Source: an uncultured Acidimicrobiia bacterium
Lineage (GTDB): Bacteria > Actinomycetota > Acidimicrobiia > Spongiisociales > UBA5794
Assembly (NCBI GenBank): GCA_963759175.1
Contig: CAVWXP010000008.1
Coordinates: 179,041 to 243,040, forward strand
Reading direction: 5' to 3'
DNA length: 64,000 nucleotides
Shown here: piece by piece, positions 55,225 to 58,367 of the stretch
Layout: each line of letters opens with the position of its first letter
Numbering within the stretch: position 1 is the stretch's first letter
Made by a program: the position numbers and the translations under genes
The notes under the pieces: model-generated
The model's input: the letters and a program-made list of their open reading frames with translations, nothing else
What the model was told of the DNA's origin: nothing
The model's database searches: none

Positions 55225-55842
55225 CTACATGGCGTCGAGGATCTCCTGCCGCTTGCGCTCGTACTCCTCATCGGAGATGAGGCCCTCGTCACGCAACGCA
55301 GCCAGCTTGCGGATCGACTCTGCCTGATCCGGAGCGGGAGCCTGCACGACGGTCTTCGTGCCGGACAACTCCATCGAACGATGCTCACGCGTCTTGTACA
55401 ACAGCGTCTGGAAGGCGTCGGGATGCGGGATGTTGGAGAACTTGCTCTGACCTGTCGACCCTGCCGATTCGATGAGCAGGTCACCGGCGCCGAGCATGCG
55501 CTCGAACACGGATTGCGAGAAGTTGACGTTGGTGATCCGCTCGAGGGGGATGTCGACGCCGCTCTTGGCGATCAGGCCGGTTCGCGTGATCAACCGCTCT
55601 GACGTGAGTACATAGCGGGTCGTCCACCAGTTGACGACGGGCCTCACGACGAAGAAGACGCCGAAGCCGACCAGGACGGCAACGACCACCCACACGAGGA
55701 CATCGAGATTCACAGCGACGAGGATCATCGCCACGGAGAGGCCGACGAACCACAGGAACGGGATGAACAACAGTTTCCAGTGGGGGCGGAACGATGTGAC
55801 GATCGTTTCGCCGTCCGAGAGTGCATCTTCTGGCCAAGGCAT
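55225..55842 (-). CDS. Bacterial PH-domain membrane protein with SHOCT tail
   Basis: Two TMs, YVLTSERLI..G, LRDEGLISDEEYERKRQEIL. Confidence 0.85.
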   Translation of the reverse strand: MPWPEDALSDGETIVTSFRPHWKLLFIPFLWFVGLSVAMILVAVNLDVLVWVVVAVLVGFGVFFVVRPVVNWWTTRYVLTSERLITRTGLIAKSGVDIPLERITNVNFSQSVFERMLGAGDLLIESAGSTGQSKFSNIPHPDAFQTLLYKTREHRSMELSGTKTVVQAPAPDQAESIRKLAALRDEGLISDEEYERKRQEILDAM

Positions 55843-55935
55843 GGCGCCAGACTAGCTCCCGGCAGCACCAGCGACGCCGTATACGGGGGAATTCTTCGCG
55901 GCGGCCGATCACCGCCACGCATCGCCCGGAGACGC

Positions 55936-56213
55936 GAGAAACCCCAAGGAAGCCGAAGCCCCCTTGGGGTTCCCGTTGGACCGACCGACCTTTCGGCCAG
56001 CCGCTCCCCGCTCCGCAAGCGGAGCGGCAGTCGTGGGCCGAAGCCCCCGACCCTCCGAAGCGAACCGTGTGACCGGAGTCACCCGGAGGGCTTGCGCCCG
56101 TCCACCCGAAGGTGTCCACGTCCGGAGCGGCCCGTTTCCGGGCCCGTCGGCTTGCGCCGACCCGCTTCGGGTTTCCCCTCTGCGGACCGCCTCGGGGTTT
56201 CCCCCTTGGCGAT
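55936..56213 (-). ncRNA. Putative structured ncRNA A (~280 nt), family unknown
   Basis: About 10 hairpins capped by GAAA/GCAA/UUCG on the minus strand; upstream promoter-like elements; terminal terminator hairpin; no credible ORF. Confidence 0.7.
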
Positions 56214-56219
56214 GAACGC

Positions 56220-56294
56220 ATCATGGTGCCGCCCCTGCACCAAACGCAAGCCCGATCGCTGGTTCGTTTTCGCGTCCTTCGTGGAGTTTTCGCG
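56220..56294 (-). promoter_or_regulatory. Promoter of RNA A: -10 CATGAT (56220-25), -35 TTGCGT (56244-49), CGCGAAAAC direct repeats (56266-74, 56286-94)
   Basis: Same geometry as the promoter of RNA B. Confidence 0.65.
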
Positions 56295-56311
56295 CGGCCC
56301 GGTACCCTCTG

Positions 56312-56935
56312 GTGATGCGAGCCAGCCGTGCTGCCCTGATCGTCGCGATCTCCGCTCTCGTCGCCACTGGCTGCGGGACGAGCGAACCGACCCAGACCAC
56401 GCCGGGTGTGGTCGGCGGTAGCGGATTGGTGCTCTCTGCTGACGGCATAGGAACCTACGCGATCGGCGACGATGCCGACGTGGTCATCGACGGCGTGTCC
56501 GCCCAGATCGGCGGATGGGACTCGGATTCCCTCGAGCCGGGAACAGCCATCGAGGTGCCAGAGTGCGGCGGCGGGGAGGTACGGCAGATGTCGTGGGGCA
56601 ACCTGGTGCTCGTCTTCGTCGACACGGGAGCGGGCTCGCGATTGTTCACATGGGCCTATGGCTACGACCCCGTGACCGGCAACGCCGAGGACCGACGCGG
56701 ACTCGACCTGAGGACGGACTCGGGTGTCCGGTTGGGAACGCCGCGATCGGAGCTCGAACGAATCCATCGCGGCGAGGTCTCGATCACCGACGACACGTCC
56801 GTCGACATCGCTCGTTTCACCGTCGACGGCGACGAGGAGGAGCACCTCGGTGGTCGGTTCGGTTCGACGGCTCCCGACGCCGTGGTGCAGTTCCTCGAAC
56901 GGATCCCGGGGTGCGCCGGAGCCGCATCGGGATGA
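56312..56935 (+). CDS. Hypothetical lipoprotein
   Basis: Lipobox ATGC; GLVLSADGIG, TDSGVRLGT. Confidence 0.7.
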   Translation: MMRASRAALIVAISALVATGCGTSEPTQTTPGVVGGSGLVLSADGIGTYAIGDDADVVIDGVSAQIGGWDSDSLEPGTAIEVPECGGGEVRQMSWGNLVLVFVDTGAGSRLFTWAYGYDPVTGNAEDRRGLDLRTDSGVRLGTPRSELERIHRGEVSITDDTSVDIARFTVDGDEEEHLGGRFGSTAPDAVVQFLERIPGCAGAASG

Positions 56936-56962
56936 CCGGCCACCGGCATCGGTCGTCGACGC

Positions 56963-57360
56963 AGAAAACCCCGAGGAAGCTCGGCCGAAGCCTTGCCCTC
57001 TCGGGGTTCTGCCGAAGTGGATCGCTCCACTCCAATCCGGACCTCACCGGTTTCCCGGCTCCTTCCGGTCGTCCGTCCGTCTCCTCGCAGCGGTGAGGCT
57101 GCCAAGACCGGTCCCGGACCGCCATCCCGCCGAAGCCGGACGACGTCGCCGTCCCGAACCGAGGTCCGGTGCGGCTGGCAACCGCCTTGCGGCGGTCAGC
57201 CGGTGCCCTTCGGAGGCTGGGCTCCCCCTCGAGGCGAACCATCGGACGCCGAAGCGCTCGATGGGGTCGATGCAGGTCTCCCTGCACCGTCGGCCCGGTT
57301 TCCCGGGTGCTGGTCCCGAGGGATCAGCTGCCGAGCTCTCGGGGCTTTCACCCCTCGAGC
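56963..57360 (-). ncRNA. Putative structured ncRNA B (~400 nt), related to RNA A
   Basis: GNRA/UUCG-capped hairpins on the minus strand; 5' hairpin and terminator homologous to RNA A. Confidence 0.7.
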
Positions 57361-57367
57361 GAGCGGA

Positions 57368-57441
57368 AAGGTAGGGCACCCACCAGCGTGTCGCAACCCT
57401 GGGGACTCATTCGTTTTCGCGTCCTGCGATGGGTTTTCGCG
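57368..57441 (-). promoter_or_regulatory. Promoter of RNA B: -10 TACCTT (57368-73), -35 TTGCGA (57391-96), CGCGAAAAC direct repeats (57413-21, 57433-41)
   Basis: 17 bp spacer; repeats at the same offset from -35 as in RNA A. Confidence 0.7.
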
Positions 57442-57506
57442 AAGGTGCGTCACATGGATCGCCCGGGGGCTCGGGATGTGTCACAGCGCTCCGGTACAGT
57501 CGCCCC

Positions 57507-58367
57507 ATGGACATCGAAGCGGACTCGCCCACCCTCGCTGGTCACGTGCCGACCCCCGCGCTCACGACGCTGTCGCCGAGTCGCGCCAGCGACTTCAAGA
57601 CCTGTCCCCAGCTGTACAAGTTCAAGTCGATCGACAAGATCCCCACCGAGCCGACCATCCACCAGGCGCGTGGAACCACCGCCCATCTCGCCCTCGAGCG
57701 TCTCTTCGCCCTCCCGGCACCCGAACGCACACCCGAGCGCCTGTACGACCTGTTCCGCGACTCCTGGGCCGAGCTGAAGGTCGACGAGTACCCCGATCTG
57801 TTCGCATCGGTCGACGAGGAACGCGACTGGGGCATCGAGAGCCTCCACCTGTTGGCCGCGTACTTCGGCATGGAGGATCCGTCCTCGTTCGAGCCCGAGG
57901 AACTCGAGATGGACCTCACAGTCGACATCGACCACATGACCATCAGGGGCATCCTCGACCGTATGGAGCGCATCGTCGAGGTCGACGACGCTGGAACACC
58001 GCGTGAGCTGCTCGTCATCACCGACTACAAGACGGGACGCGCCCCACCACCCCAGTACGCGAACAAGGCCTTCTTCGCGTTGAAGATCTATGCCCTGTTG
58101 ATCCGGGTCACGCGAGGCATCACCCCTGACCGTGTCCGGCTGTTGTACCTCAACGGACCCACCGAGTACACCCTCGACATCACCGATGCCCAGCTCGATG
58201 CCATGGATCGCCAACTGGCCGCCCTGTGGAAGGCCATCGAACAGGCCATCACCACCGACACGTGGCCCGCACGTACGTCACCGCTGTGCGACTGGTGCGA
58301 CTACAAGGAGGGTCTGTGCCCAGCGTGGAACGACCCGCCGGTCGCGGCCCCCGGTGACGATGGCTGA
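57507..58367 (+). CDS. Stand-alone RecB-family PD-(D/E)XK nuclease with four Cys (probable Fe-S)
   Basis: LSPSRASDFKTCP, GILDR, ITDYKTG, LCDWC..C; TACAGT 6 nt before ATG suggests a leaderless mRNA. Confidence 0.88.
   Translation: MDIEADSPTLAGHVPTPALTTLSPSRASDFKTCPQLYKFKSIDKIPTEPTIHQARGTTAHLALERLFALPAPERTPERLYDLFRDSWAELKVDEYPDLFASVDEERDWGIESLHLLAAYFGMEDPSSFEPEELEMDLTVDIDHMTIRGILDRMERIVEVDDAGTPRELLVITDYKTGRAPPPQYANKAFFALKIYALLIRVTRGITPDRVRLLYLNGPTEYTLDITDAQLDAMDRQLAALWKAIEQAITTDTWPARTSPLCDWCDYKEGLCPAWNDPPVAAPGDDG

What the first reader, a model, noticed from the sequence alone, without database searches (positions are those of the whole stretch)
55936..56213. Candidate novel structured ncRNA A (~280 nt, minus strand)
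Read on the minus strand, this ORF-free gap is a chain of hairpins: CGCC-AA-GGGG[GAAA]CCCC-GA-GGCG, GGG[GAAA]CCC, GUCGGC[GCAA]GCCGAC, GGCCCG[GAAA]CGGGCC, CACC[UUCG]GGUG, GGGC[GCAA]GCCC, GUGAC[UCCG]GUCAC, GGGC[UUCG]GCCC and GGCC[GAAA]GGUC. It ends in a UUCG-capped terminator followed by UUUCUC. GNRA/UUCG loops occur overwhelmingly on one strand, a hallmark of selected RNA structure. A -35/-10 pair predicts +1 at ~56213. I see no RNase P, tmRNA or SRP signature; an Ms1/6S-like RNA-polymerase-binding RNA cannot be excluded.
Basis: partly seen in the sequence, partly recalled or inferred. Interest (0 to 1): 0.85.

Follow-up and report, generated by a model that had tools for sequence, protein, structure and literature searches.

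The report
Replication-linked hairpin-array RNA gene
This stretch is a real, separately transcribed gene for a roughly 278-base non-coding RNA folded as a chain of very stable hairpins; it belongs to an uncatalogued family in one order of Acidimicrobiia, shares its promoter control element with the DNA-replication genes dnaA, dnaB and nrdJ, and has no known function.

Summary
Window 55936-56213 (minus strand) folds into 10-12 abutting hairpins capped by GNRA or UNCG tetraloops. Its fold energy is -189 kcal/mol (z -7.4), against -147 for the plus strand. It is the most tetraloop-hairpin-dense 300-nt window of the 2.9-Mb genome.

Orthologues occur in about 50 uncultured Acidimicrobiia genomes, always at the same locus. 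Covariation supports the fold: 44 of 101 pairs change on both sides, and 0 of 500 shuffles reach this.

The gene has a conserved promoter: two CGCGAAAAC boxes, -35 TTGCGT, -10 CATGAT and +1 near 56213. Its terminator hairpin is nearly invariant across the order. A longer paralogue, RNA B, lies 0.75 kb upstream.

- It matches no Rfam family.
- It is not 6S, Ms1 or a Csr/Rsm RNA.
- It is not a leader of the downstream PH-domain gene, which is leaderless with its own promoter.

In this genome the double box occurs only before RNA A, RNA B, nrdJ, dnaA and dnaB. The RNA therefore belongs to a small replication-linked regulon.

The mechanism is inferred only: most likely a trans-acting protein-binding decoy or scaffold.

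The parts
56286..56294 (-). Distal upstream box CGCGAAAAC
   Evidence: Read from the sequence. Conserved with a 20-21-nt period across family-level orthologues. In the genome the double box occurs only before RNA A, RNA B, nrdJ, dnaA and dnaB.
56266..56274 (-). Proximal upstream box CGCGAAAAC, 16 nt upstream of the -35
   Evidence: The spacing to the -35 is conserved across orthologues.
56244..56249 (-). -35 element TTGCGT
   Evidence: CTTGCR is conserved in position in alignments A1 and the upstream comparison. It matches the TTGACA consensus weakly and was not called by the generic scan.
56220..56225 (-). -10 element CATGAT (cAnnaT in relatives), 18-nt spacer from the -35
   Evidence: Conserved A at position 2 and T at position 6 across the genus.
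55936..56213 (-). RNA A transcript (about 278 nt; +1 inferred at A 56213, 3' end inferred in the UUUCUC tract 55936-55941)
   Evidence: Fold statistics. Covariance model R1 gives a full-length hit of 258 bits. Covariation.
56162..56211 (-). P1 and P2, the 5' hairpin modules. Each has an outer stem, a purine-rich internal loop (AA/GA, AGA/GAA), a G3-4/C3-4 inner stem and a GAAA loop.
   Evidence: Helices 1-3 carry compensatory changes. This module is repeated 2 to 4 times in different species.
56129..56161 (-). P3 (GUCGGC-GCAA-GCCGAC) and P4 (GGCCCG-GAAA-CGGGCC)
   Evidence: Helices 4 and 5 are 94-99% paired, with 5 and 3 pairs changed on both sides. P3 is missing in one species, and another clade has an extra hairpin here.
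56053..56127 (-). Central domain: conserved hairpin ACACC-UUCG-GGUG, then GGGC-GCAA-GCCC, then CCG/GUGAC-UCCG-GUCAC/CGG. It is either closed by a long-range helix or preceded by a small local hairpin.
   Evidence: The three inner hairpins are supported (helices 7-9). The closing helix is paired in only 43-59% of cells, and the local CUCC/GGAG alternative in 78%, without significant covariation. This point is unresolved.
55978..56052 (-). P6 (UUCG loop), P7 (GCUCCGC-UUGC-GGAGC) and P8 (GAAA loop)
   Evidence: Helices 10, 11 and 13 have 6, 4 and 3 pairs changed on both sides.
55937..55974 (-). 3' module: terminator hairpin GGAACCCCAAGGGGGC-UUCG-GCUUCCUUGGGGUUUCUC with two tandem G-U pairs
   Evidence: Invariant in 17 family-level sequences. 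In more distant families A-U changes to G-C and the loop changes, while the G-U pairs stay. In this genome the motif occurs only at RNA A and RNA B.
56958..57361 (-). RNA B, the longer paralogue, with the same promoter layout (boxes 57433-57441 and 57413-57421, -35 TTGCGA 57391-57396, -10 TACCTT 57368-57373) and a related terminator
   Evidence: Sequence. R1 hit of 24.4 bits, E 8e-6. Terminator and double-box motif hits. Second copies are present upstream of RNA A in most related loci.
55225..55842 (-). Downstream neighbour: membrane protein with bPH_2 and SHOCT domains. It is leaderless with its own -10 (TAGTCT, 55849-55854) and is not part of the RNA.
   Evidence: Pfam. A TANNNT hexamer ends 6-7 nt before the ATG in 49 of 51 loci, and only 4 have a Shine-Dalgarno-like motif.

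Best explanation
Window 55936-56213 (minus strand) is the gene of a stand-alone, trans-acting non-coding RNA of about 278 nt. It is one of a conserved pair, with RNA B 0.75 kb upstream, of 'hairpin-array' RNAs found in one order of Acidimicrobiia.

**Shown**
- It has a conserved activator-type promoter: two CGCGAAAAC boxes about 20 nt apart, 16 nt, -35 TTGCGT, 18 nt, -10 CATGAT.
- It has a terminator hairpin that is nearly invariant across the order.
- Its body is made of 10-12 directly abutting short hairpins closed by hyperstable cUUCGg or cGNRAg loops. The stems covary, and the number of hairpins changes between species by gain, loss and duplication of modules.
- The same double box stands in front of dnaA, dnaB and nrdJ, and nowhere else in this genome.

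**Inferred**
- An unidentified transcription factor bound to the boxes switches on RNA A and RNA B together with the replication initiator, the replicative helicase and the ribonucleotide reductase.
- The RNA has almost no single-stranded sequence, so it probably does not act by base-pairing. It more likely acts as a stable multivalent platform that binds, and so titrates or scaffolds, a protein.
- The likely contact points are its repeated 5' hairpin modules (purine-rich internal loop plus G/C inner stem) and its conserved 3' hairpin.

I put about 0.9 on 'real, independent structured ncRNA gene of a new family' and about 0.35 on the protein-decoy/scaffold mechanism.
For: **Structure**
- Minus-strand fold z = -7.4, against -4.0 for the plus strand.
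- Highest density of GNRA/UNCG hairpins in the genome.
- On the 17-sequence alignment, 44 of 101 pairs change on both sides, 81.7% of cells are paired against 34-49% when the partners are slid, and 0 of 500 shuffles reach this.
- The result holds on 103 distinct sequences: 86% paired, 95 of 98 pairs with double changes.
- Invariant G-U pairs fix the strand.

**Independent gene**
- Single copy in the genome.
- Conserved -35/-10 and boxes.
- The terminator motif is unique to RNA A and RNA B.
- The downstream PH gene is leaderless with its own -10 in 49 of 51 loci.
- RNA B is followed by a convergent gene, so it cannot be a leader.

**Distribution**
- Found in 9 of 9 genomes of the same genus, about 50 of 51 PH-gene loci and 57 of 401 genomes of the class, nearly all in one order. 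Among 401 genomes of the phylum, only this order had hits.

**Regulon**
- Five double-box sites in the genome against 0 in the control: RNA A, RNA B, nrdJ, dnaA and dnaB (NrdJ confirmed).
- The box-nrdJ link is kept in 5 relatives. The box-dnaA link is kept in 19 relatives of the same family.

**Decoy/scaffold reading**
- Modular, variable hairpin number and a 5' module repeated 2-4 times.
- No unpaired run longer than 4 nt and no conserved single-stranded segment.
Against:
- No binding protein is identified.
- The repeated short motifs are only generic stable tetraloops (CUUCGG, CGCAAG, GGAAAC). That speaks for selection on stability rather than for one repeated protein-recognition motif.
- The near-invariance of the terminator hairpin has no explanation. 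It could reflect a function unrelated to sequestration.
- The factor that binds the boxes is unknown. The boxes could also be repressor sites or an intrinsic DNA-bending element.
- The box-dnaA link was seen only within the family.
Confidence: 0.4

Rival explanations
1. A functional analogue of 6S or Ms1 RNA. It would bind RNA polymerase (holoenzyme or core) and store or inhibit it, filling the gap left by the missing canonical 6S RNA.
For: - The Rfam 6S model finds nothing in this genome.
- The length (~280 nt) is close to that of Ms1 (~300 nt; PMC9130861).
- It has its own strong-looking regulated promoter, and a paralogue pair recalls 6S-1/6S-2.
Against: - Covariation supports only short local hairpins, not a long closing stem with a central bubble.
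- There is no visible likeness, by eye, to the S. coelicolor Ms1 sequence and no Rfam hit.
- The HAD-IB hydrolase genes that mark Ms1 loci lie on other contigs.
- The hairpin number is evolutionarily plastic, which does not fit a promoter-mimic shape.
Confidence: 0.08
2. A base-pairing regulatory sRNA that targets mRNAs, for example of replication or repair genes, through loop or linker sequences.
For: - It is a stand-alone sRNA gene with promoter and terminator.
- It is co-regulated with dnaA, dnaB and nrdJ.
- The actinobacterial 6C RNA acts through hairpin loops (own knowledge).
Against: - 73% of bases are paired and the longest unpaired run is 4 nt.
- No single-stranded segment is conserved.
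- The conserved unpaired bases are generic GNRA/UUCG tetraloops, which are structured and poor seeds.
Confidence: 0.1
3. The RNA component of a ribonucleoprotein with a neighbouring gene product, as OLE RNA is with OapA. The partner would be the bPH_2/SHOCT membrane protein encoded immediately downstream.
For: RNA A lies directly upstream of the PH-domain gene, on the same strand, in about 50 of 51 loci across several families.
Against: - The whole neighbourhood is syntenic in these loci: adnA, recB-like nuclease, the RNAs, PH gene, trmA-like gene, fabI. The adjacency alone therefore says little.
- The PH gene has its own leaderless promoter.
- No RNA-binding domain was detected in the PH protein.
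Confidence: 0.1
4. A nucleoid-associated RNA. The hairpin array would work with HU-like DNA-binding proteins on chromosome organisation or replication, as proposed for E. coli naRNA4 from REP325.
For: - It is an array of hairpins made together with replication genes.
- naRNA4 is a transcribed cluster of palindromic units reported to act with HU (PMC4550694).
Against: - This is analogy only, and nothing was tested here.
- The role of naRNA4 is itself disputed (bioRxiv 10.64898/2026.03.23.713779, abstract seen).
- This RNA comes from a dedicated single-copy gene, not from a dispersed repeat.
Confidence: 0.1
5. A cis-acting 5' leader (riboswitch or attenuator) of the downstream PH-domain gene, with the conserved hairpin as a conditional terminator.
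For: - It is on the same strand as the PH gene and always immediately upstream.
- In many genomes the terminator ends only 35-46 nt before the ATG.
Against: - A TANNNT -10 hexamer ends 6-7 nt before the ATG in 49 of 51 loci, and only 4 have a Shine-Dalgarno-like motif. The gene is therefore leaderless, and a read-through transcript would translate poorly.
- The paralogue RNA B has the same architecture but is followed by a convergent gene.
- The variable hairpin number does not fit an aptamer.
- No conserved antiterminator was seen.
Confidence: 0.03

Closest known systems
CsrB/CsrC and RsmX/Y/Z protein-sponge sRNAs (Gammaproteobacteria)
   Same: - Stand-alone sRNAs built as strings of hairpins whose number varies between species.
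- They occur as paralogue sets.
- They are driven by a dedicated upstream activating sequence and end in a strong terminator.
- They act, in the known cases, by multivalent protein binding rather than base-pairing.
   Different: - No GGA motif in any hairpin loop.
- No CsrA/RsmA gene in the genome.
- The loops are generic GNRA/UUCG tetraloops.
- There is no sequence or Rfam relationship.
- The regulon partners are replication genes, not a Gac-type system.
Ms1 RNA (Actinobacteria) and 6S RNA
   Same: - Similar size to Ms1 (~300 nt).
- Found in an actinobacterial lineage that lacks a recognisable 6S RNA.
- Has its own regulated promoter.
   Different: - No Rfam hit and no visible likeness to S. 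coelicolor Ms1.
- No HAD-IB hydrolase synteny.
- The structure supported by covariation is a hairpin chain, not a rod with a central bubble.
E. coli naRNA4 (REP325 transcript; PMC4550694)
   Same: An RNA made of tandem palindromic hairpin units with a proposed link to chromosome biology.
   Different: - naRNA4 derives from a dispersed repeat family and lies in a 3' UTR context. RNA A is a single-copy gene with its own promoter and terminator and covarying, non-identical hairpins.
- The naRNA4 function is disputed.
OLE RNA with OapA
   Same: A large structured ncRNA of unknown biochemical function, confined to one bacterial lineage and encoded next to a membrane-protein gene.
   Different: - OLE has a complex, highly conserved multi-junction fold and conserved sequence blocks. 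RNA A is a plastic chain of simple hairpins.
- The adjacency to the PH-domain gene is part of a wider syntenic block.

Membership tests
6S RNA (RF00013) | Match to the Rfam covariance model | tested here: not met
   No hit in the window at gathering score, none in the region at E <= 10 and none in the whole genome at E <= 1.
6S RNA (RF00013) | Long irregular rod: closing stem, central bubble, terminal stem | tested here: not met
   Covariation supports 10-12 local hairpins. The only long-range helix proposed is paired in 43-59% of cells.
6S RNA (RF00013) | Binds the sigma-70-type holoenzyme and templates pRNA | not testable with these tools
   Needs biochemistry or RIP-seq.
Ms1 RNA | Sequence or covariance-model similarity to known Ms1 RNAs | tested here: not met
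   PMC9130861 states that Rfam holds Ms1 candidates. No Rfam family matched. By eye there is no likeness to the S. coelicolor Ms1 sequence read.
Ms1 RNA | Synteny with the HAD-IB hydrolase gene (PMC9130861) | tested here: not met
   The two HAD-IB (TIGR01490) genes of the genome are at C10:351168 and C7:223276. RNA A is on C8.
Ms1 RNA | Binds the RNA polymerase core | not testable with these tools
   Needs immunoprecipitation.
Csr/Rsm sponge RNAs | Many GGA motifs exposed in hairpin loops | tested here: not met
   0 of 11 loops contain GGA.
Csr/Rsm sponge RNAs | Cognate CsrA/RsmA protein encoded in the genome | tested here: not met
   PF02599 finds nothing in the genome, which is 95% complete; the controls were positive.
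Csr/Rsm sponge RNAs | Array of hairpins with species-variable number, paralogue copies, dedicated upstream activating sequence | tested here: met
   This is a likeness in design, not homology.
Riboswitch or attenuator leader | The downstream gene is expressed from the element's promoter by terminator read-through | tested here: not met
   The PH gene has a -10 hexamer 6-7 nt before its ATG in 49 of 51 loci and lacks a Shine-Dalgarno motif in 47 of 51.
Dispersed repeat (REP/MITE-like) element | Multiple copies in the genome | tested here: not met
   Only one full-length match in the genome; the other matches are <= 30 nt with E > 0.03.
New hairpin-array RNA family of Acidimicrobiia (this scan) | Double CGCGAAAAC box promoter, chain of tetraloop hairpins, and 3' module GAAC(AC)CCCCRAGRGGGC...GCUYYCUYGGGGUUUCU, located between the recB-like nuclease gene and the PH-domain gene | tested here: met
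   Covariance model R1 gives a full-length hit of 258 bits.

The most novel reading that the evidence does not exclude
RNA A and RNA B are the RNA arm of a dedicated replication or cell-cycle regulon. An unknown factor bound to the CGCGAAAAC boxes would switch them on together with dnaA, dnaB and nrdJ. The RNAs would then act directly on chromosome replication or nucleoid organisation, for example by titrating or scaffolding a replication, repair or nucleoid protein. That would be a bacterial counterpart, in logic, to structured RNAs needed for replication in eukaryotes.
Probability: 0.15. Interest if true: 0.85.

Novelty: new variant of a known kind. Interest (0 to 1): 0.62.

Why it matters
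Acidimicrobiia are abundant in soils, waters and activated sludge, but their regulation is almost unknown.

- This is an order-wide, covariation-supported pair of sizeable ncRNAs with no catalogued relatives, so it is a clean new RNA family.
- Its promoters share a rare, phased double box with dnaA, dnaB and nrdJ. That defines a very small regulon tying a structured RNA to DNA replication.
- It gives concrete handles for experiments: a DNA site for fishing out the regulator and an RNA for fishing out the partner.
- If the RNA acts on replication or nucleoid proteins, that would be a new kind of link between ncRNA and the bacterial cell cycle.
- If it is a generic stable decoy, it is still a new example of the hairpin-array design outside Proteobacteria, in a lineage without CsrA or 6S RNA.

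Tried and rejected
- **Rfam.** The whole window at gathering score and the region at E <= 10 gave only noise: PyrR205 at 17 bits and Twister-sister at 14 bits, both far below threshold.
- **6S RNA.** The Rfam model found nothing genome-wide.
- **Ms1.** I read the defining papers and the S. coelicolor sequence and saw no likeness by eye. The synteny is absent, and Acidimicrobiia are not mentioned in that study.
- **CsrA.** No gene in the genome.
- **Repeat element.** The RNA is single copy.
- **Protein-coding reading.** The 454-aa frame across the region has no Pfam hit.
- **Leader of the PH gene.** Rejected, because that gene is leaderless.
- **Functional coupling from synteny.** The RNA-PH adjacency is weak evidence because the whole block is syntenic.
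- **Repeated recognition motif.** A search for a repeated protein-binding motif found only generic tetraloops.
- **Central-domain helix.** Neither the long-range closing helix nor a local alternative hairpin could be established.
- **Generic scans.** The promoter/terminator scan found nothing, because the -35 and the U-tract are weak. Conservation is the evidence for them instead.
- **Literature.** Searches for Acidimicrobiia ncRNAs and for a regulator with this box found nothing relevant.

Full report

The minus strand folds to -189.2 kcal/mol (z = -7.39; none of 200 dinucleotide shuffles folds as well). The plus strand reaches only -147.0 (z = -3.99).

The 11 loops of the MFE fold are GAAA, GAAA, GCAA, GAAA, UUCG, GCAA, UCCG, UUCG, CUUG, GAAA and UUCG. 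73% of the bases are paired, and the longest unpaired run is 4 nt.

I also scanned the whole 2.9-Mb genome for hairpins of at least 4 bp capped by GNRA or UNCG. This window ranks first with 10 per 300 nt. RNA B is second with 7, 16S rRNA has 5, and the genome mean is 0.35.

One correction: the gap is not literally ORF-free. A 454-aa frame (55481-56845, minus strand) crosses it. That frame has no Pfam match, and the orthologue alignment shows indels that are not multiples of three.

**2. What organism, and how widespread?**

Record titles of related loci name uncultured Acidimicrobiia MAGs. The RNA is single copy in its own genome.

| Search | Result |
|---|---|
| BLAST, genomes of the same genus | 9 of 9, about 73% identity |
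| Loci fetched through the downstream PH-domain protein (profile, then covariance model R1) | about 50 of 51 loci, always same strand, directly upstream of that gene |
| R1, genomes of the class (strict filters) | 57 of 401; 56 in one order, in families f1, f3, f5, f9, f10 and f12 |
| R1, genomes of the phylum | only members of that order |

**3. Covariation**

I used a 17-sequence MAFFT alignment (A2) and projected the MFE structure of this genome's RNA onto it.

- 81.7% of cells are standard pairs, against 34-49% when the partners are slid by 1-3 columns.
- 44 of 101 pairs change on both sides, and 0 of 500 shuffles reach any of the five measures.
- RNAalifold independently gave 29 of 71 pairs with compensatory changes.
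- On the model-fitted alignment of 103 distinct sequences, 86% of cells pair and 95 of 98 pairs show double changes. That alignment leans towards the structure, as the tool warns.

Every local hairpin is supported. The terminator stem is invariant within the family. In distant families it covaries (A-U to G-C, loop UUCG to GCAA) while keeping two tandem G-U pairs. Those G-U pairs would be A-C mismatches on the other strand, which fixes the functional strand.

One point is unresolved. RNA nucleotides 87-100 may close a three-hairpin domain through a long-range helix (43-59% paired). Alternatively they may form a small local CUCC/GGAG hairpin (78% paired, no significant covariation).

**4. Anatomy of the gene**

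Upstream, the layout is conserved across the family:

- two CGCGAAAAC boxes at 56286-56294 and 56266-56274, about 20 nt apart;
- 16 nt;
- -35 TTGCGT (56244-56249);
- 18 nt;
- -10 CATGAT (56220-56225);
- 6 nt, then A at 56213.

The hexamers are weak matches to the consensus and the generic scan missed them. This fits an activator-dependent promoter.

The RNA body starts with two modules of one type: an outer stem, a purine-rich internal loop, a G3-4/C3-4 inner stem and a GNRA-like loop. Other species carry two to four of these modules. Elsewhere hairpins are gained, lost or duplicated. The most conserved internal hairpin is ACACC-UUCG-GGUG.

The 3' module GAAC(AC)CCCCRAGRGGGC...GCUYYCUYGGGGUUUCU is shared by RNA A and RNA B across the order. 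In this genome it occurs only at those two places.

RNA B (about 56958-57361, minus strand) has the same promoter layout and is a weak but significant R1 hit (24.4 bits, E 8e-6). Most related loci also carry a second copy upstream of RNA A.

**5. Is it a leader of the downstream gene?**

No. The bPH_2/SHOCT membrane-protein gene (55225-55842) has a TANNNT hexamer ending exactly 6-7 nt before its ATG in 49 of 51 loci. Only 4 loci have a Shine-Dalgarno-like motif. This is the signature of a leaderless mRNA with its own promoter.

In many genomes the terminator ends only 35-46 nt before that ATG, so the hairpin insulates one unit from the other. RNA B is followed by a convergent lipoprotein gene and can be nobody's leader.

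The adjacency to the PH gene is part of a larger block: adnA, recB-like nuclease, RNA B, sometimes a lipoprotein gene, RNA A, PH gene, trmA-like gene, fabI. This block is conserved across these loci, so the adjacency alone does not argue for a functional partnership.

**6. A small regulon**

I searched the whole genome for two CGCGAAAA-type boxes 19-21 nt apart and found five sites. The reversed-sequence control gave none.

- The sites stand before RNA A, RNA B and nrdJ (C10:316377; vitamin-B12-dependent ribonucleotide reductase confirmed by NCBIfam), before dnaA (C5:187173, 341 nt before the ATG) and before dnaB (C5:247517).
- The 7-mer core occurs 119 times on both strands, so my rough estimate of the chance expectation for such pairs is about 0.01.
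- In relatives the double box is equally rare, 0-3 per genome with 0 in controls.
- The box-nrdJ link is kept in five relatives. The box-dnaA link is kept in 19 genomes of the same family but was not seen in other families.
- In other families of the order the box precedes similar hairpin-rich RNAs.
- At RNA A, RNA B, nrdJ and dnaB the proximal box lies 15-18 nt upstream of a TTGnnn -35, a position typical of class I activators (inference).

I found no described regulator with this site.

**7. Mechanism**

- *Shown:* a conserved, independently promoted and terminated gene; a covarying hairpin chain; modular plasticity; shared upstream boxes with replication genes.
- *Inferred:* the RNA has no conserved single-stranded segment and its hairpin number drifts. 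It therefore most likely acts in trans as a stable multivalent protein-binding decoy or scaffold, made together with the replication initiator, helicase and ribonucleotide reductase.
- *Weakness:* the repeated short motifs are only generic hyperstable tetraloops, no partner is known, and the near-invariance of the 3' hairpin is unexplained.

I put about 0.9 on the gene-level claim and about 0.35 on this mechanism. The rivals are an RNA-polymerase-binding analogue, a base-pairing sRNA, an OLE-like RNP with the PH protein, a nucleoid-associated RNA and a cis-acting leader. They are scored separately.

**8. Comparison with known families**

- *6S RNA:* no model hit in the genome and the wrong architecture.
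- *Ms1:* no model hit and no visible sequence likeness. The HAD-IB synteny that PMC9130861 uses to find Ms1 is absent, and that study does not cover Acidimicrobiia.
- *Csr/Rsm sponges:* the design is the same (hairpin array, paralogues, dedicated upstream site), but there are no GGA loops and no CsrA gene.
- *naRNA4/REP325 (PMC4550694):* also a hairpin array linked to chromosome biology, but it derives from a dispersed repeat and its role is disputed.

It works most like a sponge or scaffold sRNA and is a member of none of these families.

**9. Earlier notes of this scan**

Notes on other genomes (e1-5101871, e1-4902032, e1-2785565) describe the same family as a tandem pair of hairpin-array RNAs. 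One reports a control element shared with dnaA, nrdJ and dnaB, and high abundance. I had found the dnaA and nrdJ sites before reading that note and looked for the dnaB site after it; all three are present in this genome. I could not test abundance. These are AI notes, not independent evidence.

**10. Limits**

All relatives are unnamed MAGs, so I could not say which cultured species carry the gene.

Noticed in passing
genome contigs C10:316377-316403 (+), C5:187145-187173 (-), C5:247517-247543 (+); window 56266-56294 and 57413-57441: The phased double box CGCGAAAA(C) occurs only five times in the genome: before RNA A, RNA B, nrdJ, dnaA and dnaB. This looks like a very small replication-linked regulon of an unidentified regulator. 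The link is conserved before nrdJ in 5 relatives and before dnaA in 19 genomes of the same family.
   Followed up: yes
window 55843-55854 and the equivalent position in loci L022-L072: The bPH_2/SHOCT membrane-protein gene is leaderless. A TANNNT -10 hexamer ends 6-7 nt before the ATG in 49 of 51 loci, and almost none has a Shine-Dalgarno motif.
   Followed up: yes
window 57413-57441 versus ORF 57429-58367 (+): The boxes of RNA B overlap the annotated start of the divergent PD-(D/E)XK (RecB-family) nuclease gene, which precedes an AdnA/AdnB-like helicase-nuclease. The same site might therefore also control this double-strand-break repair operon, or the nuclease gene may start further downstream.
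   Followed up: no
window 55936-55945 (terminator tail GGGGUUUCUCGCGU): As DNA, the invariant tail TTTCTCGCG resembles the reverse complement of the box (GTTTTCGCG) with one extra base. In genomes with a short gap it sits about 40 nt upstream of the leaderless PH gene start. This may be coincidence or a further binding site.
   Followed up: no
genome contig C17:254430-254930 (locus L174): Tandem arrays with periods of 30 and 65 nt, each unit carrying a CCCCUUGAAAGGGG(G)-type hairpin. There is no Rfam match and there are no spacers as in CRISPR.
   Followed up: partly
genome contig C19:165520-166020 (-) (locus L172): A hairpin-dense stretch ending in a T-arm-like GGGGGUUCGAGUCCCUCCACCCGCAC. Neither ARAGORN nor Rfam at gathering score calls a tRNA or tmRNA here.
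   Followed up: partly
genome contig C10:316420-316650: The nrdJ leader of about 200 nt contains NrdR-box-like palindromes (for example CCAATATGTTGTATGTG) between the double box and the start codon.
   Followed up: no
loci L029, L027, L028, L070, L071, L032, L041 (upstream of the R1 match): In several species the RNA starts about 25-75 nt further upstream than the covariance-model match. The extra sequence holds one to three more copies of the 5' hairpin module, so model R1 underestimates the 5' end there.
   Followed up: partly
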